Assembly: GCA_013239625.1 (NCBI GenBank)
Contig: MU053164.1
Location: 24,734 to 88,733, forward strand
Source of the DNA: Lama guanicoe
Lineage: Eukaryota
DNA length: 64,000 bases
Direction of reading: 5' to 3'
A program made the translations under genes and the position numbers. Positions 6,934-49,458 of the stretch are shown one piece after another. Numbering within the stretch: position 1 is the stretch's first letter; every line of letters begins with the position of its first letter. The notes beneath the pieces were generated by a model. That model searched no databases, was not told the DNA's origin, and was given only the letters and a program-made list of their open reading frames with translations.

Positions 6934-7269
6934 GAAGAACATTTTTTAAGCAACTTAATTAACCTTTGGTCTATGCTAACCACAGCAAAAAGAAGTTTGC
7001 AAGGTTGTGAAGCAACTAAAATTCTCTGACAGTCTTGTTGAATATATAAATTGATACAACCACTCTAGAAAATTATCTGGTAGTTTTTTATAAGATTAAA
7101 CCTACACCTACTTTGTGACCCAACAATTTTGCCGTGAGGTGTTTATCCAAGAAAAATGAAAACGTAGGTCATAAAAAGACTAGTACAAAGCTGTGATTTT
7201 TGTAGAAATTTGTAGAAAGTCTACATTTGGTCACCTGACCAAAGGTCTGTGGCGTTTGACCTGCTGCAG

Positions 7270-7431
7270 GGAAAGCCCGTCTGCTAGTGCTGACACACGT
7301 GCGTTTCTGTCATCGGTCGTGTGCTCCAGTAGGACCCTGCTACTTGATGGCCGGGTAGAACTCAGAAGAGGCCTGCAGAGTCAGGAGCATCTTTTCCTAT
7401 TCAATGACCTGTTCGTTGTGGCCACAATCAA
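7270..7431 (+). CDS. ARHGAP20: ARHGAP20 exon (start of PH domain), [10 protein letters not shown]...[15 protein letters not shown]
   Basis: ctgcag|G acceptor, AA|gtgagt donor; matches human DSPSASVDT...[15 protein letters not shown]. Confidence 0.93.
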
Positions 7432-28400: not shown

Positions 28401-31400
28401 TATCTGCCTAGCATTATGCAAAGCATATCACATGAGTTATCTCATGTAATCCTTTCATTTACCTGTGAGATCACTACAGTGTAATTCAGGTTTCAAGTAA
28501 TCTGAATAATCTAAATCCAAACTTTTCTATGAAATGTATATTCTCAAGCTTTAAAGCAAGCCATCATGCACATAGCTGAGGACAAAAAATTCCCTACATT
28601 TCCAGTTTATTTCTTTTCTTTTTTTTTAACATTTTTTATTGACTTATAATCATTTTACAATGTTGTGTCAAATTCCAGTGTTCAGCACAATTTTTCAGTC
28701 ATTCATGGACATATACACACTCATTGTCACATTTTTTTTTCTGTGAGTTATCATAACATTTTGTGTATATTTCCCTGTGCTATACAGTGTAATCTTGTTT
28801 ATCTATTCTACAATTTTGAAATCCCAGTCTATCCCTTCCCACCCTCCACCCCCCTGGTAACCACAAGTCTGTATTCTCTGTCTGTGAGTCTATTTCTGTC
28901 CTGTATTTATGCTTTGTTTTTGTTTGTTTGTTTTTGTTTTTTAGATTCCACATATGAGCGATTTCATATGGTATTTTTCTTTCTCTTTCTGGCTTACTTC
29001 ACTTAGAATGACATTCTCCAGGAGCATCCATGTTGCTGCAAATGGCATTATGTTGTCAGCTTTTATGGCTGAGTAGTATTCCATTGTATAAATATACCAC
29101 ATCTTCTTTATCCAGTCACCTGTTGTTGGACACCAGTTTATTTCTTAATGTTGTCATTTGTGTAAAAGTCAATGAGCAACAATTAAAGCTGTGATGAAAA
29201 GTCAAATAAGTACTTAAAATAGTTGTTTTAATAAAATATATTAATTTAATTAAAACTATGTAGATAATAACTGTCAGGCTTAAAACAACATGAAGCTTCA
29301 TTTCTAACTCACTAAAAAAATATAGGATATGGGACATGGTTGTTACTTAGCAGCAGTTCTCCATTGTATATTTTACTGCACCTTGCAAATTTCAGTTGTG
29401 GATTAGCTACTGGCTATTTTGGTAAATCAATTTTGTTTTATTGCTGTTGTAGAAGTCTTTTTTTATTTTTCTGCCTTAGTCCCTGAAAGTTGCTGTAGTA
29501 CTTAATATCAATGAAACATTGACACTATATGCCTATGCAAGATGAAAAGGAAAAGTTCACTGAATTAGATTCAGTGATAAGTCTGGAATGGAAGAGACCT
29601 TACTCTCTGTACTTAAAAAGTAAACAAATCTACAGCACAATGGTACTTAAGAATTGAGAAAATGAAATTACTCAGCGTACTAAAGATCAAAAACTTATAT
29701 AGCAGTCAGATGTCCAGGGTTTAGTTTTTCTAGTTTGAAAACTCCTTTTTGAATCTTGTTTTTGTGTCTCTCATACCCCGTAGTCTTCCTTCTAACTGTT
29801 GTCTGTGAATAACGGCCTCAGAGTGGCATGGTGGGAGGGAAAGCATAAGTCAGACAAGCCAGCCCTTGAGTAACTCTAATTGTGTCTATAACTAATAAAC
29901 AGTATAAAATGTCTTCTTTCAGGTAGATATCTTATATTGAATAATAGTAATAATAGTGATCTTTGAAATATATAGTTATTTGCCCTTTGTATTTAAATAC
30001 TATTAACCACTAAATTTTACTTATTTGATCCTTATAATACTGTGTGATGGGTAGGATAAATATTTTAAATCATGAATTTAAGGCTGAGAGAGGTCAAGGA
30101 TTTGCTGAAGATTTGCAGAGATAGGTAGTGTCAAAGGAGAAACTAGAATGCCTTTCAGTATTCTCAGATGTGAACATAGGAAAAGTCAACATGATGCAAC
30201 TCACAAACTAACCTGTGCATTCCCAAACAAGATATTCTTTAAAGACTTTTTTCTCTTTGTTTCTTCTCTCTACCAACCCCCCCAAAAAAAACTACTTTGG
30301 TGGGGCCACCTGCATTACACAGTGGTCTCCAACTGTAAGAGTGTGCATGGTGATCACTCAGTCAACAAAAGGATTCTTTATACCAAAAGTCCCAGGAGCA
30401 AATTGCAGGACATTCCAGTCTGTAGCACACATGCTCATACTGACACAGTGTCAGTCAGCCTAAAGTCTACATTTAGATTTTTCTCTGTGTAGGACATGAA
30501 TTCCCCTATGGGATTGAAATGAGTCACCTTCGAGACATGGCACTCCTGATGCAGAGGTCAAAGGACTCCCCCACACCTTCCAACCTCCAAGAGCCCTTCC
30601 TCATGGAACAGCTGCCCCAAGAGAAGCAGTGCCACTTCATCTTGAATCCCAGCCGGCTGGCTGTGGCCCAACAACTGGGTGGTGAGTTTTCTCTCTCTTT
30701 CATGAGAGCCTTTTTTTAGCAAAACTTTTCATTCCTGAAAACAAAGTTTTCAAAGTTCTTTGCCTGTATACTTCCAGCCAGATGAGGTTTTTTTTTCTTT
30801 TGAGTTTTCTAAGTGTTTTGAAAGGAAAGATGGAGCTTTAGAAGATGGGTTTATAAATCAGCGGTAGGGGTGACTGACGGGTAATCAGCAGCTGGTTGTG
30901 GTATGGTCTGTTCTTTCTTTCTTCACTGTCCTTCCCCCTTTAGCCTTATGCCCACTGCAGAGTCAAATGCACCAGGCAGGGCAGCAGGTTCTTCAATGCC
31001 TTCTTTGTACTGTAATGCGTTGCATTGTGTGTTCCCCCTAAATGATCACATTATTAAAAGAAGGCCGTCAGTGATGGGTGTCAGGAGATGCTGGTGCCTT
31101 ACCTGGATCCTGGTACTGATAATCATGTGAAGATGAAGGTAATTTCCATAGAAATCTCTCCTTAGTCTGCTAAGCTAATCTGAATTCCCTGGGAACATAG
31201 CCATCTGTTACCCTCCCCATAATGAAGACTCCAGAGTGATTAAAAAGTGGTGTTCAACGTAGGAGGACCATCATTAATTACCCTAACCCGTGTTTGAGCT
31301 TTACACCCTCAGTCTGAAAGTAAGATTGTATAGAAATAAAAGCAAATGTATCATACCAAAAAGTGTGAGGTGGGGGTGGGGGGATAGCCAAAAATCGATG

Positions 31401-34400
31401 CTGAATTTTTTGAGCTACTTTTGTAAACCTGAACGAACTGGGATACACCATGGACAGTGGCCACTGTTTTATGCTCATCCCCCCACACATGCATGTCCAG
31501 CCCTGTCTCTTTCGGTTGATGACCTAGCCTCAAACTTTATACTTTATTGAAATCACTGGTCAGGACTCCTTCATCTTGCCAACACCAGCTATAAAAACTT
31601 ACCCTGCATTTGCACCAGTCTTCCTCTTTCCCACAGAGTTAAAGTGAGTTTTTGAACTCTAAGGCTGTTTACCCACATCTTTGGGGTGTCATGGAGATAT
31701 TACAGTTTTCCATCCCCTGAAATGTGAGCTCCATGAAGGCAGAGAGTTGAGTCTGTTTTGTTCGCTGCTATGTTTTCAGCACCTGAAACAGTGTCTGCAT
31801 ATATAAATTGAACTCAATAAATATTTGCTGAATGAATTGTTTTATTGACAGATCTGTTGCTGGTACTCATTGAAGACACAAAGGGAATGTCACCTTTATA
31901 ACTAAGCTGAGGAAAATGGTGTTTTACTCTTCTATCTTTCTACCCATGTTGTTCAAAATGATTTCTCTGGGTCCCTTGTCAGTAAAATAAATTTATTTTA
32001 ACTGATTTGACCAAAATAATCAGGGGTCAAGAATCCTAAGAATTTTACCCATCTTTGTCAACAGCTTGCTTAATTAAATTGTAGGCATCATCTGTGTGTT
32101 AGTCCTCTGTTTCTCTCTGTTGGAAGTAGGATGATATTGGTTGCAGCTGTAAGATGACTCACGCTAAGGGAATGGAGTGACTACAGACCCATGGTGGCAA
32201 CCTACCTGTGAAAATAAAAATTTAACAAGTGAACCAGTTTTGTATTTTTTTAATATCCAAGATTTTGATGAACAGCTGCTTTGGAAACCACTGACTTAGA
32301 CCAGGGCTCAATAGACTTTTTCTGTAAAGGGCCAGGTAGTAAAACTTGCAGATCAAGAGACAGAATTGATGGTATTACACAGGTACTTAAATAACAAGAG
32401 GAAAAACAAATTTTCACAAGTTTTTTACCGATGACATTCGATATGTAGTAATAGAGTACAATTTTGTGTAGTACAGATCTGCTAATGAGAGGAATTGAAT
32501 TGTTTTGGAGGAATAATATTTCACTTAATTGAAGTGCAATGTTAGTATTCCAATTATCACCATTGAATGGAAAGTGTTCTGATCTGTAATGAGGTTTTAT
32601 GTATTTCATCATCTTTGAGAATACCTTTTCACACAAGTAGGTACTGCCAAATACTGACATACCATGCTACAAGCATACAATTTTAATTGAGCATATTTCT
32701 CTCTTCAGAGACATTTGTAGAATTTTGTTAGATTCTTCTTTTGATATTTGCCTTTTGGCGTGTCATTTCATTGCAGATTAATCACTTCCAATTGAAAGTT
32801 AGGTAGAAGTTAAAGGCTTTTGAAACATGAAATTCCCCTTTGCACAGGTCAATTGCACAGTTAAAGGATTTTCAAATATAGAAGTATCCTTTGCATTTAC
32901 ATTGAGGTAGGTAAATACTGCTAGACATGTAGTTTGAGCTCAAAAAATATATCCACTACAATTTTTTTATGAGAATGGAGATCTTGCTTCTTGTTTTGAC
33001 TTTAGACAGCAAGAAAAGTGTGAAAGTTGTTTGACATTACTTGTTCACTAAATGTCATTAAATGTCAAAGTAATGTTTTTGTTTTCTTTAGATAAATACC
33101 CAGCAGTGGAATTGCTGTGTCATATGGTTGTACTATTTTTACTTTTTGGAGAAACCCCCATGCTGTTTCCCATAGTGGCTGCCCCAAGTTGCGTTCCCAC
33201 CGATAGTGCGTGAGGGTCCCGTTTCTCCACACCCTCACCAACACTTGTCATTTGTGTCCTGTTGATAATAGCCATTCTCACAGGTGTGAGTTTCTATCTC
33301 ATTGTGGTTTTGATTTGCATTTCCCTGAGAATTAGTGATGTTGAGCATCTTATCACGTGCCTGGTTGCCAACTTTATATGTTTCTTGGAAAAAGTCTCTT
33401 CAAATCCTCTGCCTATTTTTAATTGGGTTGTTTGTTTTTTTGCTGTTGAGTTATATGAGTTCATTATGTATTTTAGATGTTAACCCCTTATCAGATATGT
33501 GATTTGCAAATACTTTCTCCCGTCACCTTATTGAAGTAGGTTGATTTTTCATTTTGTTCATGGGTTCCTTTGCTGTGCAGAAGCTTTTTAGTTTGATGTA
33601 CTCCTTCATTTTTTCTTTTGTTGTTTTCCATTTTTGGTGTCAAATGCAAAAAATAAAATCATTGCTAAGACCAGTGTCAAGTAATTTACCCCCATGTTTC
33701 CTTCTAGGAGTCTTATGATTTCAGGTCTTATATTCACATCTGATCCATTTTGAATAAATTTTTGTGTATGGTGTGGTCCAGTTTCATTTTTCACTTACTG
33801 CTCTCCAATTTTTCCACTAGAACAAATCGTAATAAAATTTATATGGAATCACAAAAGACCTAGAATTGCCAAATCATTACTGAAGAAAAAGAAGGAGGCT
33901 GGAGGAATAACCCTCCCAGGCTTCAGACAATACTACAGAGCTACAGTAATTGAAACAGCATGGTATTTGTACATGAACAGACATCAGGATCAGTGGAACA
34001 GAACAGAGAGCCCAGAAATGAACCCATGTCACTTTTGAAGAGACTGTTCTTTCCCCATTGTGTATTCCGGGGGGTATCCCAGCAGCCCTGCCCCTCAGGC
34101 CAGTGCCTTAAAATTAGGAAATGAGTCTCTTTAACATGAAGTCAGTGATTTGGAAAGAACTGCCTCTGCCCTGAGCCCTGGGGTGGGTAGTGTGCACACA
34201 AGGGCTTTAAGAACTATTCCCCAGTCCACCATGGCCCACAGATCTCCTGGGCATGAGCTCTCTTGGCCTTCAAAGTGAGATGTTTTCGGGGTTTGTCTCA
34301 CAGGTGCCAGACCTTAAAAGTTGCGGTGACCTATGTGGGGTTCAAACCTTTCACTCCTTCTGGAGAAGGTCCGGGTTTTGAGGAGATTTTAAGTTCCCTC

Positions 34401-37400
34401 CCAACTGTGGGTTGTTGCACTAGGGGTGGGGTTTATGGTGAGATTGTCTGAGCCTTTTCTAGCCACTTCCCTCTCATTTTCCCAATGTGACGGTCTCTCT
34501 GCCAGTTTTTAGGTTTTTTTCCAGAGAAAATTGTCACATAGGTAGCTGTAGATACGGTGTGTGCATGGGAGGAGGTGAGTTCAGGGTCTCCCTATGTCAC
34601 CATCTTGCTAAAATCTCTCACTAAAGGGCTTTTTGTTGTGATTATTCTTTAACAATCTATGAGGACAAACTTCTGAGAATTATACTTTTTTAATATTCAG
34701 CTCCCTAACTGAAGTGTGGAGAAATACCGGCTTGGACCTTGTCCAGGCTGTCTGGGACACTAGGCCTTCCTGAACTCCACCGGCCCTGCATTTACATTTC
34801 CCTTACAGTTTTTATAGCAATTGCATGTCTTTTCACCAGTCTTTGACATTTGGAAAGTAAGAGCTGTGCATTAAAGTTCTGCAAGAAAGTAAACTTTAAT
34901 GAGATTCTTTTCTCTCAGTCCCAGAGGGAACATGAGCTCTAAAATTGAATGTTGTACATAGTAAAAGACATGGCTGCAGCTGAAAGTATTCATAATCAAG
35001 TTCAGGACTCAGTTTCTGCTTTATCCTCTGTCTGCANNNNNNNNNNNNNNNNNNNNNNNNNNNNNNNNNNNNNNNNNNNNNNNNNNNNNNNNNNNNNNNN
35101 NNNNNNNNNNNNNNNNNNNNNNNNNNNNNNNNNNNNNNNNNNNNNNNNNNNNNNNNNNNNNNNNNNNNNNNNNNNNNNNNNNNNNNNNNNNNNNNNNNNN
35201 NNNNNNNNNNNNNNNNNNNNNNNNNNNNNNNNNNNNNNNNNNNNNNNNNNNNNNNNNNNNNNNNNNNNNNNNNNNNNNNNNNNNNNNNNNNNNNNNNNNN
35301 NNNNNNNNNNNNNNNNNNNNNNNNNNNNNNNNNNNNNNNNNNNNNNNNNNNNNNNNNNNNNNNNNNNNNNNNNNNNNNNNNNNNNNNNNNNNNNNNNNNN
35401 NNNNNNNNNNNNNNNNNNNNNNNNNNNNNNNNNNNNNNNNNNNNNNNNNNNNNNNNNNNNNNNNNNNNNNNNNNNNNNNNNNNNNNNNNNNNNNNNNNNN
35501 NNNNNNNNNNNNNNNNNNNNNNNNNNNNNNNNNNNNNNNNNNNNNNNNNNNNNNNNNNNNNNNNNNNNNNNNNNNNNNNNNNNNNNNNNNNNNNNNNNNN
35601 NNNNNNNNNNNNNNNNNNNNNNNNNNNNNNNNNNNNNNNNNNNNNNNNNNNNNNNNNNNNNNNNNNNNNNNNNNNNNNNNNNNNNNNNNNNNNNNNNNNN
35701 NNNNNNNNNNNNNNNNNNNNNNNNNNNNNNNNNNNNNNNNNNNNNNNNNNNNNNNNNNNNNNNNNNNNNNNNNNNNNNNNNNNNNNNNNNNNNNNNNNNN
35801 NNNNNNNNNNNNNNNNNNNNNNNNNNNNNNNNNNNNNNNNNNNNNNNNNNNNNNNNNNNNNNNNNNNNNNNNNNNNNNNNNNNNNNNGAGATCATCCCCT
35901 TCTTGCCCCATGATCAGAGAGAGCTGAGGGGTAAAGCACCATCTCTGGCAGCATGGTTGGGTGTCAGGGTCTCACAGCCAGAACGTGATGACCAGTTTCA
36001 TGCACTGTCCCTGGTGAAAAATGTAGTCAGACTACGTGGGCACCACCTGGGGGCCTGTTCGCCTCAAGAGCTTTTTCGCATCTGCCCCACGCAATGCAGG
36101 CTTCGGGGATCAGCCAGAGGTTTGGGCAGAATTCATGCCCATTATTTGGGTTGGGGCTCCCACTAGTCTGTCTGCTCCTTCCTGGGGTTCCCCCTTCACC
36201 CTCCAGCTGCTGTGGTCATCTCCAACTCCATTCTCTATAGTTTTTTCAAACCAACAAGAGGACAGGTCTCTCTCCAAATTTTAGTCACCCCTGCCACCCT
36301 GGGTCCTGTGCTCATGGAATAAGCTGTAAAAATGGGAACCTCACCCAGCGCCATGCCATTCCCTTCTTCCAGGTGTCAAACTGTTACCTCCACTCTGTGC
36401 CTTCCTTTGGTCACTCTTCAGTGTCTCCAGGTTGGCTCTTACATATTTAAGTGTTGTCTGGAGTTTATAGCTGTTACCTGTGTGTATTTGTTTAGGCCAG
36501 CAGGTGTAGGTGGCAGAAAGGTCAAAAAGGACCCTAAACAGCTGTCTTTTTAGGTATCAGATCCTGTGCAGATTCATCCATTTTTGTCTTAAAATTAGAT
36601 GCAGATGGCATCAGAACTGTTTTAGAACTGTGATCTCACAAAACCATGATTCACTACTGAACTTTCTTCTGCCTGTTTTGTTCCTGCTGTCTTTTATCAC
36701 CTAAATGTCTGCTCAGTTCAATTACTTTCGAGAATGGTTTATTGAGTACTTACTAGACATGAGGGATGATGCTGGATCCTCTACCTGTTGAAATCGTGTT
36801 GATTCAAAATTCACATCCAATGCAGGTGCCTGCAGGACCGCTCCCTCTCTCCCAAAGGGGAGAGAGATGTGCTTCATGGTTTTTCTGAATGCCTCTGGTG
36901 CCTTGTTCCTCCCTTAGGACATTTTATTTATTAATATACTTGCTCTCCCCCCACCACCCATCACCAGTCTTGTCCCCCCATAAGATTATAAACTTTACCG
37001 TGGCAAGGGCAAGTCTCACTCATGTTTTCATCCATCCATGCTGCCTTGAACATACTTTTTAAAGTCAGGAACCAAAAAGATACATGAAAAGTCTGCAGTT
37101 GGAGAGAAAGGGGGGGAATGCAGAGCGTTAGCTTCCTGCCTCTGTGCTCAACAGCAGAGTGGGGCATCAGGTAGTAGAGCGCTCTTGTTCTCAGAGAGCA
37201 CCTTCATAGCAAAGCCTCCTCCCCTTCCCCCAGGTCTTCTTCCTCTTCTTTTCCTCCTCCTCCTCCTCATCCTTCTCCCCTCCCCCTTCTCCTTCTCTCT
37301 CCTTTCCCTCCTCCTTCTTCCTTTCTTTTTGTCATTATTGAGTTGTGGTCTAATTTGATCTTCAGCTTTTTTGTTCACTTAGTCTCCTCTTTAAAATGGC

Positions 37401-40400
37401 CTGTGTGTTGGTATGAAATGCTTTGTGCTGTAAGTTCAGTAAAGGGGGAGCCCCTTTTTCACCTTTGAAAATTTGGTTCCAGAATTCAAGCACATAGACC
37501 AGTGACATCCCCAAAATGGGGGGGGGAATAACCCAAGTGTTTGATGTTTCCTTACCTTATAAAATGCTGAGCCGTGATGCTGAGCATACTATAAAATAGG
37601 AACTATAGAAATAAGATTACATGAATTAAATTAGGTTTACTAATAATCTCACTTCTTCCTTAGATTCAGGTCAGAAGACATTTAAAAGAAGATCTGTCAT
37701 TAACTGGGCCTTCTGGCGGGGCTCGAGCACCCACCTGGACAACCAGCCCGTGTCACCAACATCTCCAAAGCTGGGACAGCTCTTCAGAGTGTCTTTGCCA
37801 GATATCTGTGAGAACGACAATCTACCCAAACCTCTCTTGGTAAGTCTCATTTTGGTCTGTAACACTTAACAGGAAAGGAGAGCTCTGGAGGGAAACTCTA
37901 CCCCAAATGGAAAAATTGTGAACACTCATGGCTTTGGCTGAGAACCTTTATTATTACTTCAAAGAATACAAATCTTGACTAAACTATTGCAGCATCGTAA
38001 GGCAGACGTGATGGGGAGAGATGGTCTCGTCTGCTGGTGGCAGGAAAGAGCAGCGTGAACCTGCTCAGATAAACTAGAGTCTGTCTGCTTTGTGGATGGA
38101 GAATGCACTTTATCCCACACATTCCTCTCACATCCTTTCTTGAACCCTGTGTTGTTCAGAACATGACTCTTTCAGTCACCTTAGCAGCAGGGACTAAAAC
38201 TCACACTTCTTATTAGTATTCTAAGTGTTTAGGCATGCAGATACATCCTCTGGCATTTAGTTACCTTTTGTATGTAGAACAGATCAGGTGAAAGCCACTG
38301 AGTGTGTATGGTCTTCAGTGAAGATAGTAAATGAACCCTGTCAAGCAGCAGTTATTGAGTGTCCAGTACCCTTCAGGCACCGTCCTGGATGCCTGGCACT
38401 TCATGCTCTGCTGTATGTCTGTAAGTACCAGACACAGTCTAGTCACTTTATTGCTGGTCCTTCACAACAGAGTTAGAAGGTAGTTATCACCATCGTCACT
38501 GTCACCATCACCATCACCATCTCCATCATTCCTACTTTACAAATTAAAGCCCCACTCCCCCCAAAAAACCCTCAAGTTTACTGAAAGTCACACACAGCAA
38601 GTCTGAGCTATAACTAGGACTCAGGTCCTGTGGGTTGCACGTCTCCGACACCCACTCTCTTCCTCCTCGGCAAGTGTAGGACATGCAGCTGGAAAGGAAG
38701 CAAAATAAAAGATCGGAATGGAATGGGACAGAGAAAGCTTCCGGGAAGTGATAATTTTGGAGGCTGATTTTAAAAGAAGGCAACACAGGAAGTAGGATGA
38801 AATGTAAAGTCGCATGAAAAGAAAGACAAGCAAGTGGAGGATGAGTTTGGCAATCACATTTCCATGTCTGGGGATAAGATTTCATGTTAAGAGAACAGTG
38901 GGCAAAGAATAGTGAGACAGGAGGGAGACAAGGTAACAGGTACCTTGAAGTGACTACTGGATCGCTGAAAAAGGACAGTCGCATGAAAGCAAGAGTTGAA
39001 ATGTAGCAAGAACAAATGGGAGAAAATAGATTTTGAGACACACACACACACACACACTAACTGGCTTTAATCCGCTGGCAGCCCGTCCAGCCCCAGCCCT
39101 TCAGTGCCTCCTGCCGGGCCGCCCCGGCCCCTGGCAGCCGGGGAGGGCAGCTGTGTGTTCTCTGGCTCCTTCTGCGTCAAGTGCCATTTTGATTATTGTT
39201 TCCTTTGCTTCCCCATAGGATATGCTTTTCTTCCTTAATCAGAAAGGACCCCTCACAAAAGGGATCTTCAGACAGTCGGCCAACATGAAATCCTGCAGAG
39301 AGCTGAAAGAGAAACTGAATTCCGCAGTTGAAGTACAGCTAGACTGTGAATCGGCTTTCGTGATAGCCTCTGTCTTAAAGGTGGGAACGCACACCTTTGG
39401 TCCCCCCAGTAGTGGAGCTCTGGGGGAAGACAGCTGGTCTCCCTCATTATAACGCTATCCCCATCTGCGAAGAACCATCATAGTTAGATTCTCACAGCCA
39501 ATTAGCTATGTGGTAAAAGTATTTGTAGCAGAAATACTTGTGGCAAAGATGTCTATGCAAATAGGTTTACTTTTAAATTATTTTAGAGCCTCAGCTATAG
39601 TTAGCTGGCCTTCCCTTGTCCCTCACTAACATTTGGCCATAGGACATACAGCGACATTTCAGTAATGACCCCCTGCTACGACTGTGACTGTGCTTGGCAT
39701 TGAGTGTATGCAGTGAAAGGCGAGGGTCTGGTCTGGTCCTGCCCTGAAGGAGCTCGTAGGTTCATGGAAGACATGCTTACCTCATCAACTGACTGCAGCA
39801 CCGAGGCCCAAGGCTTCCATGAAGTCACAGAAACACGACATGTACATCACAAGTTGTGTATCACCTTTGGTAAAGCACATATGTAAGGCTGCTATTTGAT
39901 TTTCCAGAAAGAATTAAAATTACTCCATTGCACACCTGTCTCCATGTTGTAAGCAGGAACTTGCAAGAGGGTGGTCAGCCATGGGTGCAGCGCTTAGACA
40001 TGGAATTGGGTTTTCTCTGCCTGAAGTTTCCTAAGGTGGAGATCAGACTTCACAAGCTTGGCTTGTTAGGACCATGCCAAAAGCAACAGAGAGTGCTGGC
40101 CTAGAAAGGAAAGGAACATAGGACCAGGACCAAAGTGTGTTTACTTTTAAGCTTTTTTGTAAACAAATGTCAAACAACAAACTCCCTTGGTCAGATCCTA
40201 CTTGTGTCATAGTCTGGTTTCACCACACCCGGCCCCACAAGTGCTCTCAGCAGGAGTCTTGAAGGCCGGGAAGGATAATGTACCAGGGACATGTTATTTA
40301 ATATACATTATGGATGAGGGTGCTGCCCCAGGCTCCCAGAGCCCAACCATAGCCTGGAATGCCTTCTCCCCTCTGATGAAGAATACAGGGAGAAACTCCA

Positions 40401-43400
40401 GACACCTCTGGGTGGAATTAGTCACCAATGCCACTGGAATCTAAAGTTCTAAATTACCAGGGACTTTGTTTTATTTACTACCCTGTTCCTGGCACCTCAA
40501 GCAGTGCCTGGCACAGATGAGTAAATATGTATAGAATGACTGGATGACTGACTACCACATTGTGAATCTCACAGATACCTTCGTGCATTTCTTTTAACTA
40601 GTGATTTGAGAGAGAGAGAGAAAAAAAAGATTAGGATGGTTTGCCACACTCTGCCATGTTACACTAGTTTGCTAAGATATATACAAACAGGAGGTTTCAG
40701 TCCAAACAGTTTGTCCTTTATCTTTTCCACTGTAGTCCAGACCCCATCGTCCCTCTGGTTTTTTGTTAGGAAAAAAATTCAAAGCATATTTTTCTGTGTA
40801 TGCACATCACTGGAGGGCTGGCACAGAGCTCTGTGTGTTCCAAAGAAGGGAGGACTGAACTTTCCAATAAAGTGCCTTCTTTCTAATTTCTCTAATACAA
40901 ATTAGTAGAATAACAATTTAAAAAAAATTTTCCCTCTATGTAAGGATTTTCTACGATGTATTCCGGGAAGCATCTTTTCATCAGATCTCTATGATCATTG
41001 GGTCTGTGTAATGGACGAAGGAAATGATGAGGAGAAAATAAATGCAGTTCAAAGGTAATTACTCCAATTTGGTCATTCCTCAAAAATACTTTAAAAAAAC
41101 TTATATTTTATAAGCTTGTCTGTTAATGTAATAATAACTGTCAAAGTCATATCCATAGGGGCCAGTTTAAAAATAGATTTATGCTAGCAACTGTCATTGT
41201 TATTGGTTTTTTTCCTAATCTTATTAATATGGAATACTCGACCATTGTACACCTTCTGTATATTCTAATCTGATAGGCACTGAAACCCATTAGACTAATA
41301 GCTAATACTGTAGACACAATCTACAATTTATGACCTTAATTTTGGTAAATATTTAACTAACCAGGCAATTCCTTATACACTTCATTTAGCAGCTGAATTC
41401 ATACAGAGAAAATTCCTTCCCCTCAAGGAACTCACAGTCTAGTAGAAATAGACAGATAAAACCCAGAATTCCAGGGCGGTGCAGTCAGTGCTGTGACAGG
41501 GGTATGTGGAGAAGGGGACGTGAGGACAGTCCAGAGAGACAGTCAACTCGTTGAAAGTGTCAAGGGAAAAGGGAGTTGCAAAGCCTCAGCCTGATCACAG
41601 AGAATGCATTGTCTGTCCTCATGGAAAGGGAAGTTGAGGGCAGAACCCAGCACCCCCATTCCTGAGTATTTCCCACATCATAAGAGAATAGGAAAGAAGT
41701 GTCCATTAATGAAAAGCAATACTTGCGTTTCTGTGAAACCCAAGAATCCCAGTATCATTTATTTGCAAATGCTTGTTTAGTGCAATGTTATCTTGAGCAA
41801 CTTTCAAATGTAAATCATTATCTACACGCAGCTACTGATGGTGTAAGTGTTGAAGACACCAGACTCAGAGCCATGTACAAAATGCTGTCTCTGCTTTCAT
41901 GACAGCTTGTTGGGAACTGTTCAGAGACAGGGAACCTGAGATTCTGTATTGTTGTTGCTCACTGTCTAAAACTTTATATTCTAGAAGCTATTAAAGGATG
42001 ATTTTTAAAAGGCCAAAATTATGGCTCTCATATAAATATACACACATGAAAGAAATTTTATTTAAAACATGAATTAATAAAGAGAACTACTAAGACGTTA
42101 CTGCCACCGGTTCAGCGAAGATGGTTAACTACGACAAGTTATAATAATTGAATCAGAAATGCTGAAATGATTTTATAAATAGATTTGAAAACAACTGGCT
42201 TTTTCTGCTGGGACATGAGGCAGTGCAAATAAATCACGTGTCTCTTCACCAGAGAGAATTTTCAGGTCTATGGACAAGTATTATGTGTGTTGCTGTCAAT
42301 GTGCTACAGTTTACAGAGGTGTAAAATAACTCAAAGGCTCAGGGCCCCCACAGAATCTGACACCCCAAAAGAGCACGCTAGGCAAGGCCTCACTGTCCAA
42401 TGAAAACATTCAGTAATCTTTTGGCCCATTGCAATCTGTCATAATGTGTCCCTAGAAAACCATCCTCATTGTCAGTCTGTGCTGCTGAAGAAGCGCCTCT
42501 CTGGTATTTATGCAACAAGAGCCAGATTACCTGATGTTCTTCCCCAGGTTGTGATACAGGAAAACGGGGCGCGAGAGGAGGGCTGTGTCCCAGGTCTCAC
42601 TTGAGTCCCTGGGATGCGCCCCACCAAGTGAGGGTCATTGGCTTCACGCGGGAAAGAATTCAAGAGCAAGCCCTAGTTGGGTAAAAGTAGATTTGTTTAG
42701 AGAGATGTACACTCTGTAGACAGAGTGCAGGCCGTCTCAGAACGCAGGAGAAGGGCAGAGGGGAGCAGGGTTGGGTGTTTAGTTTAAAGGAGAAGTAGAC
42801 ACACAGTCCATAGACAGAGTGCCGGGCATCTGGGAAGGTGAGGGAGCAAGAGAGTCCACGAGGCACGGTGTTGCGAGTTTTTATACGCTAACAAGTGAGA
42901 GGATTACTCCAACTGCTTTGAGGAAGGGGCGGGGATCCCCAGGAATTGGGCCACCACCCTCTCCTTGACTTTCATGGTCAGCCTCGGAGCTGTCATGGCA
43001 CCTGTGGGTGTGCCGTTCATGGTGCTAGTACATTACAATGTGTGTGAGGGAGCTCAGGGTCCGCTGGAGGTCAGATCCCCTTCCATCCTGGTCCTCAAGG
43101 TCCATCGGAAGTTGACTTTTCCTCCACCTTGGTGCTAACTGCTGTGTCATTCCTTTAATGGCTGTGTCCTGCCCCCTTCCCTCCTGTCTCAGTTGCAGAT
43201 TCTTGTTGGATAAAAGCAACAAGCATGAATGGTAGTAAAAAAAAAAAGAGGTAGTAAATGATGGTGAAGGATAATTTAAAAATCCCTTATCAAGTACAAA
43301 ATTGGAACAGTAGGAAATATACTGTTATAAGCTTGACTGATGTGTGAAAGTGGTACCACTGAGATAAAGAGACATGGGACAGAATTGACCTTAGAAGCTG

Positions 43401-46400
43401 GTGGAGCAGAGTGTAAGCTCTCAGGATGAAACTGGGTATCTTTGTGGCTGAGGCTTGAAAGGTTCTCACCCAGAGACAGAATACACAAAATAAATGAATA
43501 ACACCCCTGAGTCTTACTCTCCCCCTCTGTAAGACAGTCCTCGCTCCGCACGTACCGTATAAGCTGACACTCCTGCATCTCTGAACTGTGTTTCTGTCTG
43601 CATAGTTCCCCATGAAAAGTGAAGAAAGGTTGCCCTGTCTACAAGTTTTCCACAAAATGTCTTGATTAAAGAGCACTTTTGTCTGTCTTTAGGCTATTAG
43701 ACCAGCTCCCAAGAGCCAACGTTATTCTGCTAAAGCATCTTTTTGGGTTATTGCACAAGATTGAACAACACAATTCATCGAATCAGATGAATGCATTTAA
43801 CTTAGCGGTGTGCATCGCTCCAAGCGTCCTTTGGCCTCCTGCTTCCTCCAGCCCTGAACTAGAAAGTGAATTTACAAAAAAGGTAATGAAGTTTTTCATT
43901 TTTCTGCCCTGGGGGACTGAGTCCCCATTTTGAACCTAAAGTCTGGGGTATTAATTCTGAAAGACATGTTCTTAAGTACATCTTCTTATAAGTCTGAGTT
44001 CATCGACAGTTCTGTCCTCTCCTGGTAGACTGCAGAAAGGTGATTTCTTAAGTAAAGAAAGTGACAGTAATTGGGTTACTTCTGTTTTCCCTTTAAGGGG
44101 GCAAACAGCTATGACTGACTGAAACCATAGAGGAATAAGAGCAGATGATAAGATTTTAAAAAGAAACAAAATACTTTGAAATTAAACAGGTGCAGGTGGA
44201 AATCTCAGCCCTCCCCACTTGCCAGATGTACAATCTAGGGCAGAATTAGTTACACTGATCCACAGTTTCCTCACCTAACACAGTGGAGGTGGGGATGGTA
44301 CCTCGCTCAGTCAGTACTTACTTGAAATCACACTCCTGCAGTACCTGGTGGTTAGTACAGGGACGGGGTACTGATTCCTCTTCCTCCCAATGTTCTGCCT
44401 GTTCCTTTGCCTCAGCTATTGGGGCAAGAAGACTATGGAAATGTTCCAGTTTATCTCAGTGGAGGCACAGCTCTCCCCAGTGAGCTCTTCTCCAAGCATC
44501 TCCAGTTCTGGCTCCTCAGGGAGGGAAGTGCATGGGAAGAGGCTGGTCAGGCAAAATGTATGCTTTTCTCTCCAGCTGTCTCTCTCCTTCACAGTAAATC
44601 CACAGAGGATGCCCACCTCCCACACTTACGACACCTGCCTTTTACATAAGAAACATATTTTATAAGTCTTTATCTAATGATGCTTCATGAATTTTAATAA
44701 GAAAGTATATTTCTTCATCCCAAATGCCCTGTACAGAGAATACTTAAAATTACCCTAATTTGAAAGACAGGACCGTTAGTATAAAAATGTTAGCATTAAG
44801 CCAAGGCCACAAATAATAACTTTAAGCCACTGGTTAAAATCAATTTCTATACTCAAACCACTCTTGAAAGTATCATGTTTTTTTTAGGGGAAACAGTTCT
44901 GTTTAGTTTTCAAGGAGAAAAGAACTTTGAATTTCTCTCAGGATTCTTTCACTTTTTTTTTTTTTCGGTTTGAACCAGGATTCATACAGGAAGTGTGATT
45001 TATAGGTGCGCTATGTGAAAAGTAGCCCTTCATTTTTGCTCCTTTTTTGTACAGGTTTCTCTGCTTATACAATTTCTGATTGAAAACTGCTGTAGAATAT
45101 TTGGAGAAGAAATCACTTCCCTTCTGGAAGAGGTTTCAGTGACATGTGATACAAAAGAGAATGCCTCAGGTACTGTGAATAATGGGGTTGTTTTTGTGTG
45201 TGAGAAATAGCCACACACGTGAAGGTCAGCGAGGGCACCGGTTACCCTCAGCCCAGAGCAGCTCGGGCGAAGGGGCCTCTCGCCTGGGTCAGGGGCNNNN
45301 NNNNNNNNNNNNNNNNNNNNNNNNAGGTTCCCAAAAGACATTGTTAGTGGCAGAATTTTAACTTTTTTTTTTAAATAAACCTTACAAGGATATACAGTAG
45401 AACAATTAACAGACTTACAATATAATATATTGTTATAACATATTATATTGNNNNNNNNNNNNNNNNNNNNNNNNNNNNNNNNNNNNNNNNNNNNNNNNNN
45501 NNNNNNNNNNNNNNNNNNNNNNNNNNNNNNNNNNNNNNNNNNNNNNNNNNNNNNNNNNNNNNNNNNNNNNNNNNNNNNNNNNNNNNNNNNNNNNNNNNNN
45601 NNNNNNNNNNNNNNNNNNNNNNNNNNNNNNNNNNNNNNNNNNNNNNNNNNNNNNNNNNNNNNNNNNNNNNNAAACAGCTAGCGGGGCAGGGCAGGGTGTG
45701 TGGGGCTTGAAGACATTCAGCCTTCCAGAATATGAATGCCTGCACCACCAATTCTTGGTTATCTTTGAACAATTATTCTGTGCCACCATAACATAAGTAT
45801 CTTCTCCTCTCCTGTNNNNNNNNNNNNNNNNNNNNNNNNNNNNNNNNNNNNNNNNNNNNNNNNNNNNNNNNNNNNNNNNNNNNNNNNNNNNNNNNNNNNN
45901 NNNNNNNNNNNNNNNNNNNNNNNNNNNNNNNNNNNNNNNNNNNNNNNNNNNNNNNNNNNNNNNNNNNNNNNNNNNNNNNNNNNNNNNNNNNNNNNNNNNN
46001 NNNNNNNNNNNNNNNNNNNNNNNNNNNNNNNNNNNNNNNNNNNNNNNNNNNNNNNNNNNNNNNNNNNNNNNNNNNNNNNNNNNNNNNNNNNNNNNNNNNN
46101 NNNNNNNNNNNNNNNNNNNNNNNNNNNNNNNNNNNNNNNNNNNNNNNNNNNNNNNNNNNNNNNNNNNNNNNNNNNNNNNNNNNNNNNNNNNNNNNNNNNN
46201 NNNNNNNNGTTTTTTTTAAGGCAGCATGTATTTGAGGCAAGTGCAAATGTTAATCATGGTTTGATTTTTTTGGCAGATATCTCCTGCTTCCAGCTGAATG
46301 ACTCCTCCTATGACAGCCTGGAAAGTGAGCTGAATGAAGAAGTCGATGCTCCATGCAGTGACTTAGTAAAGAAACTCAGTCCAGGCAGCAGAAGCATGGA

Positions 46401-47880
46401 CTCCGTGTTAACCCACATTGACTCTGACCTCGAGCAGCCTGAGGCAGAAGGCGTTTTAACCTTGAGTGAGTTTGACTTAGACCATCCTAAAGATGAAGAT
46501 GTCCATGTGGAACAGCCCGGTGAGCCCGCGCCAGTGGCCATGGCAGCAGTGCACAGAAAGGCCTCACTGCAGGACCAGGCCAGTGCCCCCTCTGACACAA
46601 GCACCCCCAGCTACCTGTCCGCAGCTACAGAAGATGCTCCAAAAACCCCGATGCAACAGCGACACTGCTCGGAGCCCAGCATCGGCTACCTGGGTTCAAA
46701 GCTTTCCTTTCTTATGGCGTTTTATCAGAAAAGGATACGCAGGTCCAGCTATGATGCGATTCTCCTGAAAAAAGATGAGAACCATCTGAGTCAGAATCCA
46801 CCCCTCCAGGAAGAGGGTAAGACAGGTTTTAAAACGAGTTTAGTCACAGATACTGATGTCAAGAAAAATGCCACTGATAAAAATCATAAGGAGAAAAGCT
46901 TTTGTGATAGCGAAGGAAATCATGTAAAGCTTTTTCCTAAATCCAAGCCAGGGACCATTTCTTACAGCCGCCTGTCCTCACACGATCGTCCCAGGAACCA
47001 GCCCTTCACTGCGGACATGGCTGGGTACTCCCCACCACGCACAGCAGAGCCCTTCAAGGGCTCAAGGAGGCAGCGGCGCTGCTCAGAGCCCAGCACTGAT
47101 GACCAGCACTGCAAACTGACCTATCTCAGGGGACTTTATTCAAAAAAGCAGCAGCACAACGCGAGCTGTGACACCAGTCTCTTGCCCGGAGAGGAGGATA
47201 ATCTCAAGAGGCACAAGTCTTTGCAGATGGAGGGGCAAAAGCTTATCAGTCAGAGCTTGGTCATGGGGATCGAGGTTGGCAAGAGTGGTGCCGCAAACCA
47301 GAACACTGAGAAGGTCTTCCCCTCAACATTAAACATTTGCCCGAGGAGTAGCTGTTCCAGCTTGTCCTCCCCGGACACGTCCCCATCTGGCTCGCCAGTG
47401 AGCTCCCAAGACAGCGCTTTTCCTCAGATTTCTGAACAGTCGGTGTTTACACCCACTGAAACATCCTCTCCAGTAGATTGCACTTTTCAAGCTCAAGGAA
47501 AACAGGAAGAGCTTTCTTCTGACTTTAGCAGTTCCAGCCTCATTTCTGGAATTCCCAGTCCCTCATCAGGGCAGGCCAGCAGCCACCTGGCTCATACAAA
47601 AAAGGACAGCCTAGAGGGGCATACACAAATGCGTTCTATAACTCTTCACCCCAGCACATGGTTGAGAAATGGTATAGCCAGTTTGAAAAATTGGTCCCTC
47701 AAAAAGAAGGCAAGGGTACCGAGACCAGAAAACAATAAAACAGGTTCTCTAAAAGGACCCATGGAGCCACCTCCATTTGCTTCTGGCATTCCAGAAGCCA
47801 GCACACTGCAAGAGAGACAGACAGACATTCCCCAAAGGGCAACTGAAGGACTTGGAGCTGTGCAAACAGCCCAGTGCTGA
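7270..47880 (+). CDS. ARHGAP20: Rho GTPase-activating protein 20 (PH-RA-RhoGAP); 5'-partial spliced CDS, 13 exons in the window, C-terminus shortened by 81 aa
   Basis: Exons 7270-7431, 14383-14529, 21401-21442, 22344-22428, 25298-25375, 27534-27600, 30493-30681, 37664-37839, 39219-39380, 40945-41054, 43693-43882, 45055-45169, 46277-47880. All are AG/GT bounded and phase-compatible, joining into one open frame (3127 nt) collinear with recalled human ARHGAP20. Orthologue versus paralogue cannot be settled from this window. Confidence 0.93.
8612..9130 (-). mobile_element. MaLR (MLT1-type) solo LTR
   Basis: caacaaattatcccaaaac, gtggcttagctgg..ctggctcagaggctctcatgaggttgcagtc, ttttggaggccgggtaccaca. 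Confidence 0.7.
9605..12610 (+). mobile_element. L1 5' portion: 5' UTR, degenerate ORF1 and start of ORF2 endonuclease; 3'-truncated
   Basis: L1 5' start motif (gagctcacctacccccagg..ctacatgtggagcaattctcact), A-rich ORF1 relic, and the peptide [16 protein letters not shown]...[14 protein letters not shown] (12181-12420). Confidence 0.88.
11616..11708 (+). mobile_element. 93-bp 5'-truncated L1 3' end nested in the older L1
   Basis: tgtgctgtacaccagaaattgacacattgtaactgactgtacttcaa L1 terminus, flanked by 14-bp TSD GAAGTAACAAGTTA (11602-11615 and 11709-11722). Confidence 0.85.
14383..14529 (+). CDS. ARHGAP20: ARHGAP20 exon (PH domain), [20 protein letters not shown]...[11 protein letters not shown]
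   Basis: ctttctag|A acceptor, AG|gtgaga donor; strong peptide match. Confidence 0.93.
15790..16280 (+). mobile_element. L1MC-like 3' end fragment
   Basis: ctcaaaactgtcaaggtca, gagacatgataactaaatgcaatgtggtatcttggatggatcctagaacagaaaaaaggacatta, poly-A tail. Confidence 0.7.
16290..19430 (+). mobile_element. Old L1 5'/ORF1 fragment split by the TPST2 retrocopy (16290-17020 and 19163-19430)
   Basis: atgttggaattaccataaaagaacttta|aagcagctcttatgactatgctc is continuous across the insertion and resembles L1M ORF1. Confidence 0.6.
17021..19150 (+). pseudogene. TPST2: Processed pseudogene of tyrosylprotein sulfotransferase 2
   Basis: Intronless MRLSVRR...[12 protein letters not shown]...[10 protein letters not shown] (17680-18645). 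Premature TAA at 18175-18177, a 56-codon in-frame deletion, and the native stop changed to CGA. A-rich tail about 19140-19150; 12-bp TSD AAAAGAACTTTA at 17009-17020 and 19151-19162. Confidence 0.96.
21401..21442 (+). CDS. ARHGAP20: ARHGAP20 42-nt exon, [14 protein letters not shown]
   Basis: ttcattgcag|T acceptor, AG|gtattt donor; matches human [14 protein letters not shown]. Confidence 0.9.
22344..22428 (+). CDS. ARHGAP20: ARHGAP20 exon, [28 protein letters not shown]
   Basis: gattag|A acceptor, TGT|gtaagt donor; peptide match. Confidence 0.92.
25298..25375 (+). CDS. ARHGAP20: ARHGAP20 exon (RA domain), [26 protein letters not shown]
   Basis: Long polypyrimidine tract with cctacag|T acceptor, ACT|gtaagt donor. 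Confidence 0.92.
27534..27600 (+). CDS. ARHGAP20: ARHGAP20 exon (RA domain), [23 protein letters not shown]
   Basis: ctccaag|G acceptor, G|gtaagt donor; matches human [15 protein letters not shown]. Confidence 0.92.
28616..29132 (-). mobile_element. Young 5'-truncated L1 (3' end)
   Basis: Poly-T start, L1 3' UTR/ORF2-end motifs (gcatccatgttgctgcaaatggcatta, gagtagtattccattgt), and 14-bp TSD CCAGTTTATTTCTT (28602-28615 and 29133-29146). Confidence 0.92.
30493..30681 (+). CDS. ARHGAP20: ARHGAP20 exon (end of RA domain), [14 protein letters not shown]...[18 protein letters not shown]
   Basis: gtgtag|GA acceptor, G|gtgagt donor; peptide match. Confidence 0.93.
32302..33070 (-). mobile_element. 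hAT (Charlie1-like) DNA transposon fragment with transposase C-terminal relic
   Basis: Minus-strand peptide [26 protein letters not shown] (hAT dimerisation motif); end resembles the Charlie1/MER58 terminus (cagggctc..actttttctgtaaagggccagg). Confidence 0.8.
33080..34608 (-). mobile_element. Rearranged L1 fragments: ORF2 3' part (-), inverted ORF2 piece (+, about 33820-34025) and an L1 5' end (-)
   Basis: ataaatacccagcagtggaattgctg and gcagaagctttttagtttgatgta (minus); tttatatggaatcacaaaagacctagaattgcc (plus); ggaggtgagttcagggtctccctatgtcaccatcttg is the reverse complement of an L1 5' start. Confidence 0.75.
37215..37330. repeat. Polypyrimidine (CCT/CT-rich) low-complexity tract
   Basis: Directly visible C/T-rich run including cctcctcctcctcctc. 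Confidence 0.85.
37664..37839 (+). CDS. ARHGAP20: ARHGAP20 exon, [21 protein letters not shown]...[12 protein letters not shown]
   Basis: ccttag|AT acceptor, TTG|gtaagt donor; peptide match. Confidence 0.93.
39039..39057. repeat. (AC)n microsatellite
   Basis: Directly visible dinucleotide run. Confidence 0.85.
39219..39380 (+). CDS. ARHGAP20: ARHGAP20 exon (RhoGAP domain with intact arginine finger GIFR, AGA at 39270-39272)
   Basis: ccccatag|G acceptor, AAG|gtggga donor; [22 protein letters not shown]...VIASVLK. Confidence 0.95.
40945..41054 (+). CDS. ARHGAP20: ARHGAP20 exon (RhoGAP), [19 protein letters not shown]...EEKINAVQR
   Basis: gtaag|GAT acceptor, AG|gtaatt donor; K-DFLR RhoGAP motif across the junction. 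Confidence 0.93.
42552..43191 (-). mobile_element. ERV1-class solo LTR (640 bp)
   Basis: TG...CA termini (TGATAC...GTCTCA), 4-bp TSD GTTG at 42548-42551 and 43192-43195, and ERV1 LTR-like motif gggaaagaattcaagagcaagcc. Confidence 0.85.
43693..43882 (+). CDS. ARHGAP20: ARHGAP20 exon (RhoGAP), LLDQLPRAN...[19 protein letters not shown]...EFTKK
   Basis: ctttag|G acceptor, AAG|gtaatg donor; RhoGAP NxMxxxNLAxxxxP motif. Confidence 0.95.
45055..45169 (+). CDS. ARHGAP20: ARHGAP20 exon (end of RhoGAP), [24 protein letters not shown]...ENAS
   Basis: ttttgtacag|G acceptor, G|gtactg donor. Confidence 0.93.
46277..47880 (+). CDS. ARHGAP20: ARHGAP20 terminal coding exon (Ser-rich tail), ending early at ...VQTAQC-TGA
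   Basis: ttggcag|AT acceptor; lies within ORF 46261-47880; matches human [16 protein letters not shown]...[16 protein letters not shown]. Confidence 0.93.
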
Positions 47881-48633
47881 TGCTGAGGACACGCATTCAA
47901 CCAAAGACATTTAACCACAATCAGAATCTAATATCTGCAAGGACAGAAACCGGGCTAATAACATAAAGATAATAATTATTATGACCCCTGTGTATAGAAT
48001 AACCAAGACAGGTAGCATCAAGGTTATCACTGCTGATACTTAGGACAAAAAAAGAATCCTCTTTATTGAGACTATTTGGCAAAAAGTTGAGACTAAAAGA
48101 TTTTATCACCTGTTTGGGAGGACAGACATTCCCCAAAGGGCAGCTGAAGGACTTGGAGCTGTGCAAACAGCCCAGTGCTGCAGTCCTTACCCCAGCCAGG
48201 ACTCGGAGAAGGATGGTAGCTCTCCATCCAGCCTGGCGGGAGATGGACTTGAGCTTTGTATGAAGTCCCCTGAGGAAGGAGAGAAGGATGAGCAGTGTTC
48301 TGGTACTCTGCCTCTAGAAGGATCCTCACCCAGCTCTTTGACAGTGGATGACATGTCCAGCCCAGACTCAGGGCCAACAGTGGTTTCTGATGCTGAGGAC
48401 ACGCATGTAACCAAAGACATTTAACCACAATCAGAATCTAATATTTGCAAGGACAGAAACCGGGCTACTAATAACATAAAGATAATAATTACTATGACCC
48501 CTGTGTATAGAATAACCGAGACAGGTAGCATCGGGGTTATCACTGCTGATACTTAGGACAAAAAAAGAATCCTCTTTATTGAGACTATTTGGCAAAAAGT
48601 TGAGACTAAAAGATTTTATCACCTGTTTGGGAG
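47820..48633 (+). repeat. Tandem duplication of the ARHGAP20 stop-codon region (copy 1 47820-48120, copy 2 48121-48633)
   Basis: Both copies start gacagacattccccaaagggc and end atcacctgtttgggag. Copy 1 lacks the segment equivalent to 48181-48389; the copies also differ by 8 substitutions and a 3-nt indel. Confidence 0.95.
48179..48424 (+). pseudogene. ARHGAP20: Stranded ancestral ARHGAP20 C-terminal coding segment (CSPYPSQDSEK...DAEDTHVTKDI-stop), now downstream of the stop codon
   Basis: ORF 48161-48424 aligns to the recalled human C-terminus CSSSPFQDSE...SPDSGPTVVCDIEDRYLTKDI. Confidence 0.85.
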
Positions 48634-49458
48634 GCTTTTCCTTATTAGAGCATGGATTGATCCTGTCATGCATTTTAAGAGATCCGAGCAGAGGGCTAAA
48701 GAAGCATCATCTTCTCTAGAGGAAACATGCCTTAGATGACACTAAGAAGGCAAGGATATCAAAAGTGAAGAATAAAAACCATGGACAGAGTGGGAAGTCT
48801 GCAAAGAAACCATCCGCATTCCATGAAATGTTTTTAATAAGTAAGCAAGAAAAATACCACCAATCAAAGCATTAAGAAGGAAAGCATGTCAGATGATCAA
48901 GGAAATCACGTCAGACTTTTCCCTGAAACCAAGCGAGTGGCCAGTTCTGAGACATCTCATAGTCAATCACGTGCCCTCACAGAATCATTCCAGGTACCAG
49001 CCCATTAAGGCAGCTAGAGTGGAAAAAACTCGAGGGATTCGAGCCACAAGTACCAAGACATCATAGTTTTTGTTGGTCAATTTGTTTTTCCATGGGTGTT
49101 TCACTGCTCTACAGAGGCCCCCGGACATAGCTATGGGGAGAAAGAAGGAAATGGGTGCTCATTTCAGTGTTCTTTCCGGAGATGCCTGAGCCAGGAACAT
49201 TCTCCAGAAGTGCACTTTTCCCTCCTAGGAGGTGCCCTCCTGACAGCATTCGCTGTCTGGGTGAGGAGGAAGAGTCTGCAACAACAGTCATTCCTGTGTT
49301 ACATGGTCATCGTTGCCAACAGGTGATCAAAGCAGGACCCCACTTTGCGGAAATGTTTTTCTGCAGCCTTGTCTCTAGGATTAATCAGCCAAAAAAAATT
49401 GCTGATAAATTCTCCCTTTTCCGATGACCAATTCACAGCTAAGAGAGCAGTTTATAGA

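What the first reader, a model, noticed from the sequence alone, without database searches (positions are those of the whole stretch)
47820..48633. Tandem duplication plus microhomology deletion truncates ARHGAP20 and leaves its old C-terminus in the 3' UTR
Seen: a 513-bp unit covering the end of the CDS and the proximal UTR is duplicated head-to-tail with a 1-nt G junction overlap. The upstream, in-frame copy lost 209 bp between two CTG triplets (gtgCTG / tttCTG), creating an immediate TGA at 47878-47880. The downstream copy still holds an uninterrupted frame for the ancestral last 81 aa ending TKDI-stop. Eight substitutions and a 3-nt indel between the copies suggest a real event of some age. 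Inference: the new stop is in the last exon and should escape NMD, so a shortened protein is expected. Unequal recombination within the shared first 60 bp would restore the full-length protein, making the truncation potentially reversible.
Basis: partly seen in the sequence, partly recalled or inferred. Interest (0 to 1): 0.72.

Follow-up and report, generated by a model that had tools for sequence, protein, structure and literature searches.

The report
Shortened camelid ARHGAP20 gene copy
One of many extra ARHGAP20 gene copies in South American camelids has lost its last 81 amino acids through a small deletion, and a duplicate of the lost tail appears to sit behind the new stop; the short form also occurs at three alpaca loci while full-length copies remain, so it is a gene-family variant rather than loss of the gene.

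Summary
The gene is not the single ARHGAP20. It is one paralogue of a camelid-specific expansion. The truncation is real in the family: three alpaca RefSeq loci end at the same residue and carry copy 1's Ala>Thr change, and one of them matches this gene at 505 of 508 upstream residues. All 8 Camelus proteins that reach the tail are full-length. The duplication itself has no independent support. The window is a gapped assembly, and its last exon is a mosaic of two paralogue types, so stacking of two paralogue tails remains possible (about 0.28). The short protein keeps the PH, RA and RhoGAP domains and loses a weakly conserved tail. Copy 2's open frame is expected by chance (about 0.7). One lead: a full-length alpaca sister locus has a tail that looks like copy 1 refilled from copy 2, so reversal may already have happened (about 0.2). 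Interest is moderate.

The parts
7270..45169 (+). Twelve coding exons of an ARHGAP20-like paralogue (PH, RA and RhoGAP domains); the first coding exon(s) were not found in the window
   Evidence: tblastn; all introns AG/GT and frame open; 505/508 residues identical to alpaca XP_072807795; Pfam run on the sister proteins; first-exon search negative
46277..47880 (+). Last coding exon, ending at the new TGA; 46277-47590 matches the full-length alpaca sister locus, the end matches the truncated loci
47820..48121 (+). Copy 1 of the unit (in frame, 209-bp and 3-bp deletions)
47877..47879 (+). Deletion junction; CTG microhomology, preceded by a CAGTG that is present at both breakpoints
47878..47880 (+). 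New stop codon TGA
   Evidence: the same end in alpaca P0003, P0123, P0124/127/133
48121..48121 (+). Tandem junction, one shared G, no N
48121..48634 (+). Copy 2, complete unit, now in the predicted 3' UTR
   Evidence: first AATAAA downstream of the stop is at 48771
48179..48424 (+). Stranded frame for the ancestral last 81 residues plus stop

Best explanation
This is a South American camelid ARHGAP20-like paralogue from a camelid-specific multi-locus family. After the split from Camelus, 513 bp around the stop codon of one subfamily member was duplicated head to tail with a 1-nt overlap (inferred: template switch or end joining). The upstream copy then lost 209 bp between short repeats (inferred: microhomology-mediated end joining or slippage), which put a TGA directly after Cys. 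The truncated terminal exon spread to several loci by segmental duplication and interlocus exchange. The product would keep PH, RA and RhoGAP and lack 81 weakly conserved residues. The stop is in the last exon, so the mRNA should escape junction-dependent decay (established rule; expression not shown). The loss is probably tolerated because many full-length paralogues remain, and copy 2 is a passive relic. Shown: anatomy, open gene, same truncation at three alpaca loci, incongruent trees. Inferred: that the tandem copy exists in real DNA, the repair pathways, the order of events, expression and neutrality.
For: Same stop and same copy-1 Thr in 5 of 38 camelid proteins, on 3 alpaca contigs of 38.0, 26.8 and 28.3 Mb. 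Window exons 7-12 are 320/320 identical to one of them. 8 of 8 Camelus proteins that reach the tail are full-length. Camelid copies form one clade, 100/100. The three truncated loci differ by 14-18 residues in exons 1-12 but only 5-10 of 533 in the last exon, which fits a later spread of that exon. The junction is a direct join without N and is the only such stack in 64 kb. None of the 38 camelid proteins uses copy 2's exact tail as coding sequence. The full-length sister locus shares copy 1's Val>Ser change and matches copy 2 elsewhere. Tail conservation is 0.70-0.73 against 0.93 for the GAP region in 103 orthologues, and the tail has no Pfam match.
Against: No read, contig or second assembly shows the 48120/48121 junction: searches of JGI metagenomes and of protein collections found nothing, though camelid DNA is not expected there. 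The window's last exon groups with the full-length locus (100/98; forcing it with its upstream partner is rejected, p-AU 7e-30), and the switch lies across N gaps, so the window may be chimeric. Window body plus copy 2 would make one coherent full-length haplotype. Zero amino-acid differences in 70 codons between copy 2 and the full-length locus is unlikely if both evolved apart since the duplication (P 0.02-0.05 at the point estimate, up to 0.28 at the low bound). The last four residues are fairly conserved (TKDI in 58 of 115 non-camelid proteins), so neutrality is not certain.
Confidence: 0.66

Rival explanations
1. Stacking artefact: the deletion is real in some paralogues, but there is no tandem duplication. 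The assembly placed the tail of a truncated paralogue (copy 1) in front of the tail of a full-length paralogue (copy 2).
For: Gapped assembly with three N runs just before the exon. The gene is a three-part mosaic: exons 1-12 differ from T1 at 3/508 and from F at 10/508; last-exon parts A+B differ from T1 at 27/438 and from F at 3/438; the end is T-like. Copy divergence of 2.7% is in the range of paralogue divergence. Copy 2 equals the F tail in 78 of 81 residues.
Against: The join has no N and a 1-nt overlap. The unit starts 22 bp before the first difference and ends 100 bp after the last, which is not the symmetric shape of a graph bubble (from; the assembler reasoning is inference). No other stack occurs in 64 kb. 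Annotated alpaca loci are themselves mosaics of each other, so mosaicism alone does not show an error.
Confidence: 0.28
2. The truncation is adaptive: removing the tail changes the localisation or partner binding of an active RhoGAP, and selection drove its spread to three or more loci.
For: The frame stays open for 1041 codons and the GAP arginine motif is kept. The truncated exon is homogeneous across three loci. The last residues are conserved in mammals.
Against: Spread by conversion needs no selection. No function of the tail appeared in the passages seen from PMC13419509 or in a PDZ search listing. The tail has no domain. There are no expression data.
Confidence: 0.12
3. Splicing skips the rest of copy 1 and joins the frame to copy 2, so a full-length protein is still made.
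For: Copy 2's frame is open from 48044, and the junction creates a moderate acceptor-like site at 48120 (6.4 bits).
Against: There is no AG|GT or AG|GC in the shared 60 nt. All 6 GT sites in 47681-47878 score 1.8 bits or less, against 5.8-10.0 for the true donors. No in-frame pair passes 2 bits (matrix from only 12 introns, only the last 200 nt scanned for donors). RefSeq models at three loci stop at the TGA.
Confidence: 0.04

Closest known systems
ARHGAP20 (RA-RhoGAP), Rap1-regulated RhoA GAP
   Same: PH, RA and RhoGAP domains and exon order; 75% identity to whale and 72% to cattle over the last exon; described as a RhoA-specific GAP downstream of Rap1 (PMC13419509; abstract start and passages seen).
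   Different: Multi-copy in camelids; this copy lacks the last 81 residues and carries a duplicate of them downstream.
Alpaca ARHGAP20-like RefSeq loci XP_072807795, XP_072808430, XP_072805011-013 (truncated) and XP_072804375-378 (full length)
   Same: The first three end at the same residue with the same Thr; the window matches XP_072807795 upstream and XP_072804375 in most of the last exon.
   Different: They are automatic annotations. No description of the truncation or the expansion turned up in four searches (listings only). Their DNA could not be seen, so copy 2 is unconfirmed there.
Human NOTCH2NL paralogues
   Same: Lineage-specific segmental duplicates reshaped by interlocus gene conversion, with a small deletion in the terminal exon that changes the C-terminus (PMC13261667; passages seen).
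   Different: NOTCH2NL are partial genes with a shown effect of the 4-bp deletion on protein stability. Here the gene is near complete, the lost tail is kept in cis, and no effect is shown.
Human ARHGAP11B and SRGAP2C
   Same: Lineage-specific, C-terminally shortened RhoGAP-family duplicates (PMC8156310; passages seen).
   Different: Those lose part or all of the GAP domain. This one keeps it intact and gains no new residues.

Membership tests
ARHGAP20 family | RHG20-type PH, RA and RhoGAP domains in order | tested here: met
   Pfam on sister proteins P0123 and P0132; the window is 505/508 identical to P0123 over these exons. The window's own spliced protein was not scanned.
ARHGAP20 family | Catalytic arginine in the GIFR motif | tested here: met
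   Motif present, Arg codon at 39270; its role as the arginine finger is recalled.
Single-copy ARHGAP20 orthologue | One locus per genome | tested here: not met
   38 camelid proteins in 5 clusters; alpaca members lie on 6 contig lengths; one camelid clade with subfamilies.
Real tandem duplication | Head-to-tail copies with a defined junction | tested here: met
Real tandem duplication | Junction seen in independent reads or a second assembly | tested here: inconclusive
   No read-level result was obtained. Collection searches were negative but hold little or no camelid DNA.
Microhomology-mediated deletion | Short identical words at both breakpoints, one retained | tested here: met
   CTG, plus an adjacent CAGTG with a 4-nt offset. 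A 3-nt match alone is weak evidence for a pathway.
Segmental-duplicate family under interlocus conversion | Different parts of the gene give different trees | tested here: met
   For the window this could be assembly chimerism; shared-site patterns among the annotated alpaca loci also conflict.
Last-exon stop that escapes NMD | Stable transcript and short protein | not testable with these tools
   The stop is in the last coding exon; no expression data were obtained.
Selected (functional) stranded frame | Frame kept open longer than drift allows | tested here: not met
   Chance of staying open is 0.50-0.86 over the divergence interval.

The most novel reading that the evidence does not exclude
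The 3' UTR copy has already served as a backup. The full-length alpaca locus XP_072804375-378 would descend from the truncated state and have regained its C-terminus by gap-filling conversion from copy 2. Its tail has copy 2's Ala and 70 codons with no amino-acid difference from copy 2, followed by copy 1's Ser within the 11 codons that survive right of the deletion, where all 3 differences cluster ((11/81)^3 = 0.0025, post hoc). The window's contig would be the unrepaired state of that locus, and the family would switch between short and long RhoGAP forms by local conversion.
Probability: 0.2. Interest if true: 0.65.

Novelty: new member of a known kind. Interest (0 to 1): 0.4.

Why it matters
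As it stands, it flags an expansion of a normally single-copy RhoGAP in camelids, with a truncated terminal exon that has spread among alpaca loci. I found no paper on this in four searches. It gives a natural with/without-tail pair for testing what the ARHGAP20 tail does. If the revertant reading holds, it would be a clean natural case of a coding tail lost, kept in the gene's own 3' UTR, and then restored. If the duplication is an artefact, it is a warning about gapped camelid assemblies in this family.

Tried and rejected
No whole genome is held for this window. The run search listed 24 runs; 20 held part of the stretch and none held half of its words (best 0.48). No read-level result was obtained, so these runs are not used as evidence. 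The junction motif had 0 matches in JGI metagenomes and the tail had no confirmed relative among 337 candidate stretches; both are uninformative. The junction-spanning frame had no hit in the 90% collection (6 candidates). In the 50% library it had 16 hits, none starting before query residue 26, so none crossed the junction. A search with the end of the exon at near lengths gave 20 hits, none named as camelid. Rejected: chance; loss of the only ARHGAP20; pseudogene by frameshift or bad splice sites within the window; selection on copy 2's frame; splice rescue. A class I PDZ motif was considered and is unlikely, since position -2 is Lys (rule recalled; listing shows no such report). Ruan et al. 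2008 (PMC5241158) is not held and was not seen. ARHGAP20 does not occur in the text or the 2 held supplements of PMC7331169. Passages of PMC6598621 gave nothing on this family. Supplements of other camelid genome papers and subscription papers were not seen and may list the expansion. The earlier-findings index had no look-alike. Warthog and hippo rows were dropped from the last-exon tree after a failed cut, and the set was reduced from 20 to 15 rows.
Full report
Observation. Aligning 47820-48121 with 48121-48634 gives a 513-bp unit with one shared G, a 209-bp and a 3-bp gap in copy 1, and 8 substitutions in 299 aligned bases. The long frame ends AVQTAQC* with TGA at 47878-47880. Copy 2 reads open to TKDI*, 81 residues beyond the new stop. 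The deletion lies between two CTG words, each preceded by CAGTG, directly at the left breakpoint and with 4 nt between at the right. It is the only long direct repeat in a self-BLAST of the window. The window has six N runs, three in the intron before this exon and none at either junction.

Which gene. The last exon's best protein matches are camelid: alpaca 94%, wild camel 91%, whales about 75% (120 of 228 hits listed). Five camelid clusters hold 38 proteins, all read. Of these, 30 end in KDI, 5 end at QTAQC and 3 are fragments without the exon end. Grouping accessions suggests roughly 12-16 alpaca loci; this count is my inference. The window holds 12 further coding exons at 7270-45169 with AG/GT introns and an open frame of 1041 codons, including the GAP arginine motif. 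The first coding exon was not found in the window. So this is an apparently intact paralogue from a South American camelid, not the species' only ARHGAP20.

The truncation is real in the family. Alpaca RefSeq proteins on contigs of 38.0, 26.8 and 28.3 Mb (T3 XP_072808430, T1 XP_072807795, T2 XP_072805011-013) end [14 protein letters not shown], the same stop with the Thr that only copy 1 encodes. The window matches T1 at 505 of 508 upstream residues and 320 of 320 in exons 7-12. It differs from T1 at 28 last-exon residues, so these are different sequences; I cannot exclude the same species or animal. All 8 Camelus proteins that reach the tail are full-length. T1-T3 differ by 14-18 residues over exons 1-12 (453-508 compared) but only 5-10 of 533 in the last exon, which suggests that the truncated exon spread after the loci arose (inference).

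The duplication is less secure. No read-level result was obtained, and collection searches were uninformative. The window is a mosaic. In 46277-47590 it agrees with the full-length alpaca locus F (XP_072804375-378) at 23 sites where F differs from all three T loci. It sides with T at 3 sites there, all private to F. The last-exon tree joins the window with F (100/98), and holding it with T1 is rejected (p-AU 7e-30). The switch lies across N gaps. Window body plus copy 2 would form one coherent full-length haplotype, which is what stacking of two paralogue tails would produce. Against stacking: a direct join with a 1-nt overlap, asymmetric margins (22 and 100 bp beyond the outermost differences), no second stack in 64 kb, no camelid protein ending in copy 2's exact tail, and mosaic patterns among the annotated loci themselves. 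I put a real duplication at about 0.7.

The F tail. F equals copy 2 in 78 of 81 tail residues. The three differences (T>M, V>S, T>I) all fall in the 11 codons that survive right of the deletion, and the Ser is what copy 1's TC change encodes (F's codon is not seen). There are three readings. (B) F was never deleted and the order was duplication, GT>TC, deletion; but zero differences in 70 codons then has P 0.02-0.05 (0.0005-0.28 over the interval). (R) F is a revertant, with copy 1 refilled from copy 2. (A) There is no duplication, and F took its last codons from a deleted paralogue by conversion that stopped at the breakpoint. My rough weights are 0.45, 0.2-0.25 and 0.3. The alpaca DNA behind F would separate them.

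Age. At 1.4e-9 per site per year (7e-9 per 5-year generation, PMC7331169, passages seen), 8 of 299 gives about 10 Myr, interval 4-19. That is older than the 2-3 Myr Lama-Vicugna split given in the same paper and fits the absence in Camelus. Two changes are at CpG and conversion blurs clocks, so this is loose. Under stacking it would date paralogues instead.

Likely effect. The short protein keeps PH, RA and RhoGAP (on sister proteins) and gains no new residues. The lost tail has no Pfam match, and its mean conservation is 0.70-0.73 in 103 orthologues against 0.93 for the GAP region. Its last residues are better kept (TKDI in 58 of 115). A stop in the last exon should escape junction-dependent decay (established rule). 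The first AATAAA is at 48771, so copy 2 would be transcribed as UTR. I found no splice route back to the tail (small matrix). Copy 2's frame would stay open by chance with probability 0.50-0.86, so it shows no selection. Tolerated loss under redundancy is the most likely reading; expression and function are untested.

Comparison and novelty. It works like other lineage-specific duplicates whose terminal exon is altered and shuffled by interlocus conversion, such as NOTCH2NL (PMC13261667, passages) and the shortened RhoGAP duplicates ARHGAP11B and SRGAP2C (PMC8156310, passages). It differs in keeping the GAP domain and in apparently retaining the lost tail in cis. Searches for ARHGAP20 with camel, alpaca, camelid or duplication terms gave no relevant paper (listings only; subscription papers and most supplements unseen). 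One earlier scan note on the neighbouring palindrome also calls the gene a camelid ARHGAP20-like copy; it is not independent support.

Verdict. Observation confirmed; interpretation partly supported; a new member of a known kind; interest 0.4. The revertant reading (0.2) would merit about 0.65.

Noticed in passing
alpaca proteins P0003, P0006-7, P0123-P0154: ARHGAP20-like genes look strongly expanded in alpaca (roughly 12-16 loci on 6 contig lengths, up to about 9 on one 23.6-Mb contig) against at least 2 types in Camelus; no paper found.
   Followed up: partly
window 48846-49003: Older, decayed copy of part of the last coding exon (46860-47004) inside the 3' UTR: 105/158 identical, score 112 against a shuffled maximum of 32; 113 of 120 proteins hit it, whales and sloth better than camelids. 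The exon has been partly duplicated into its own UTR before.
   Followed up: partly
window 49459-50034: 576-bp near-palindrome with 258-nt arms (91%) and a 42-bp tandem core; already noted in the scan.
   Followed up: no
window 17593-18927, + strand, intronic: Intronless, disrupted sulfotransferase sequence (Pfam Sulfotransfer_3); looks like a processed TPST2-type pseudogene (gene name recalled).
   Followed up: partly
window 6239-6950, - strand: GC-rich segment next to an N run with a PTRF/SDPR (cavin) match just below cut-off (E 1.8e-6); probably a cavin retrocopy or fragment 300 bp before the first exon found.
   Followed up: partly
window 48120 and 48125: The tandem junction puts a pyrimidine tract before two AGs (6.4 and 3.2 bits). 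The weak one at 48125 is in phase with the exon-12 donor at 45169, which would give a GAP-plus-tail isoform that skips the long last exon. Speculative.
   Followed up: no
window 62600-63900: CpG-rich segment about 15 kb past the stop with no Pfam match in the one frame tested; may mark a neighbouring promoter or the edge of the duplicated block.
   Followed up: no
alpaca T1-T3, residues matching window 47126-47590: This part of the truncated loci is as close to the B/C subfamily (9-13 of 155 differences) as to camel A (12-13), and further from window/F (16-18), suggesting conversion between subfamilies.
   Followed up: partly
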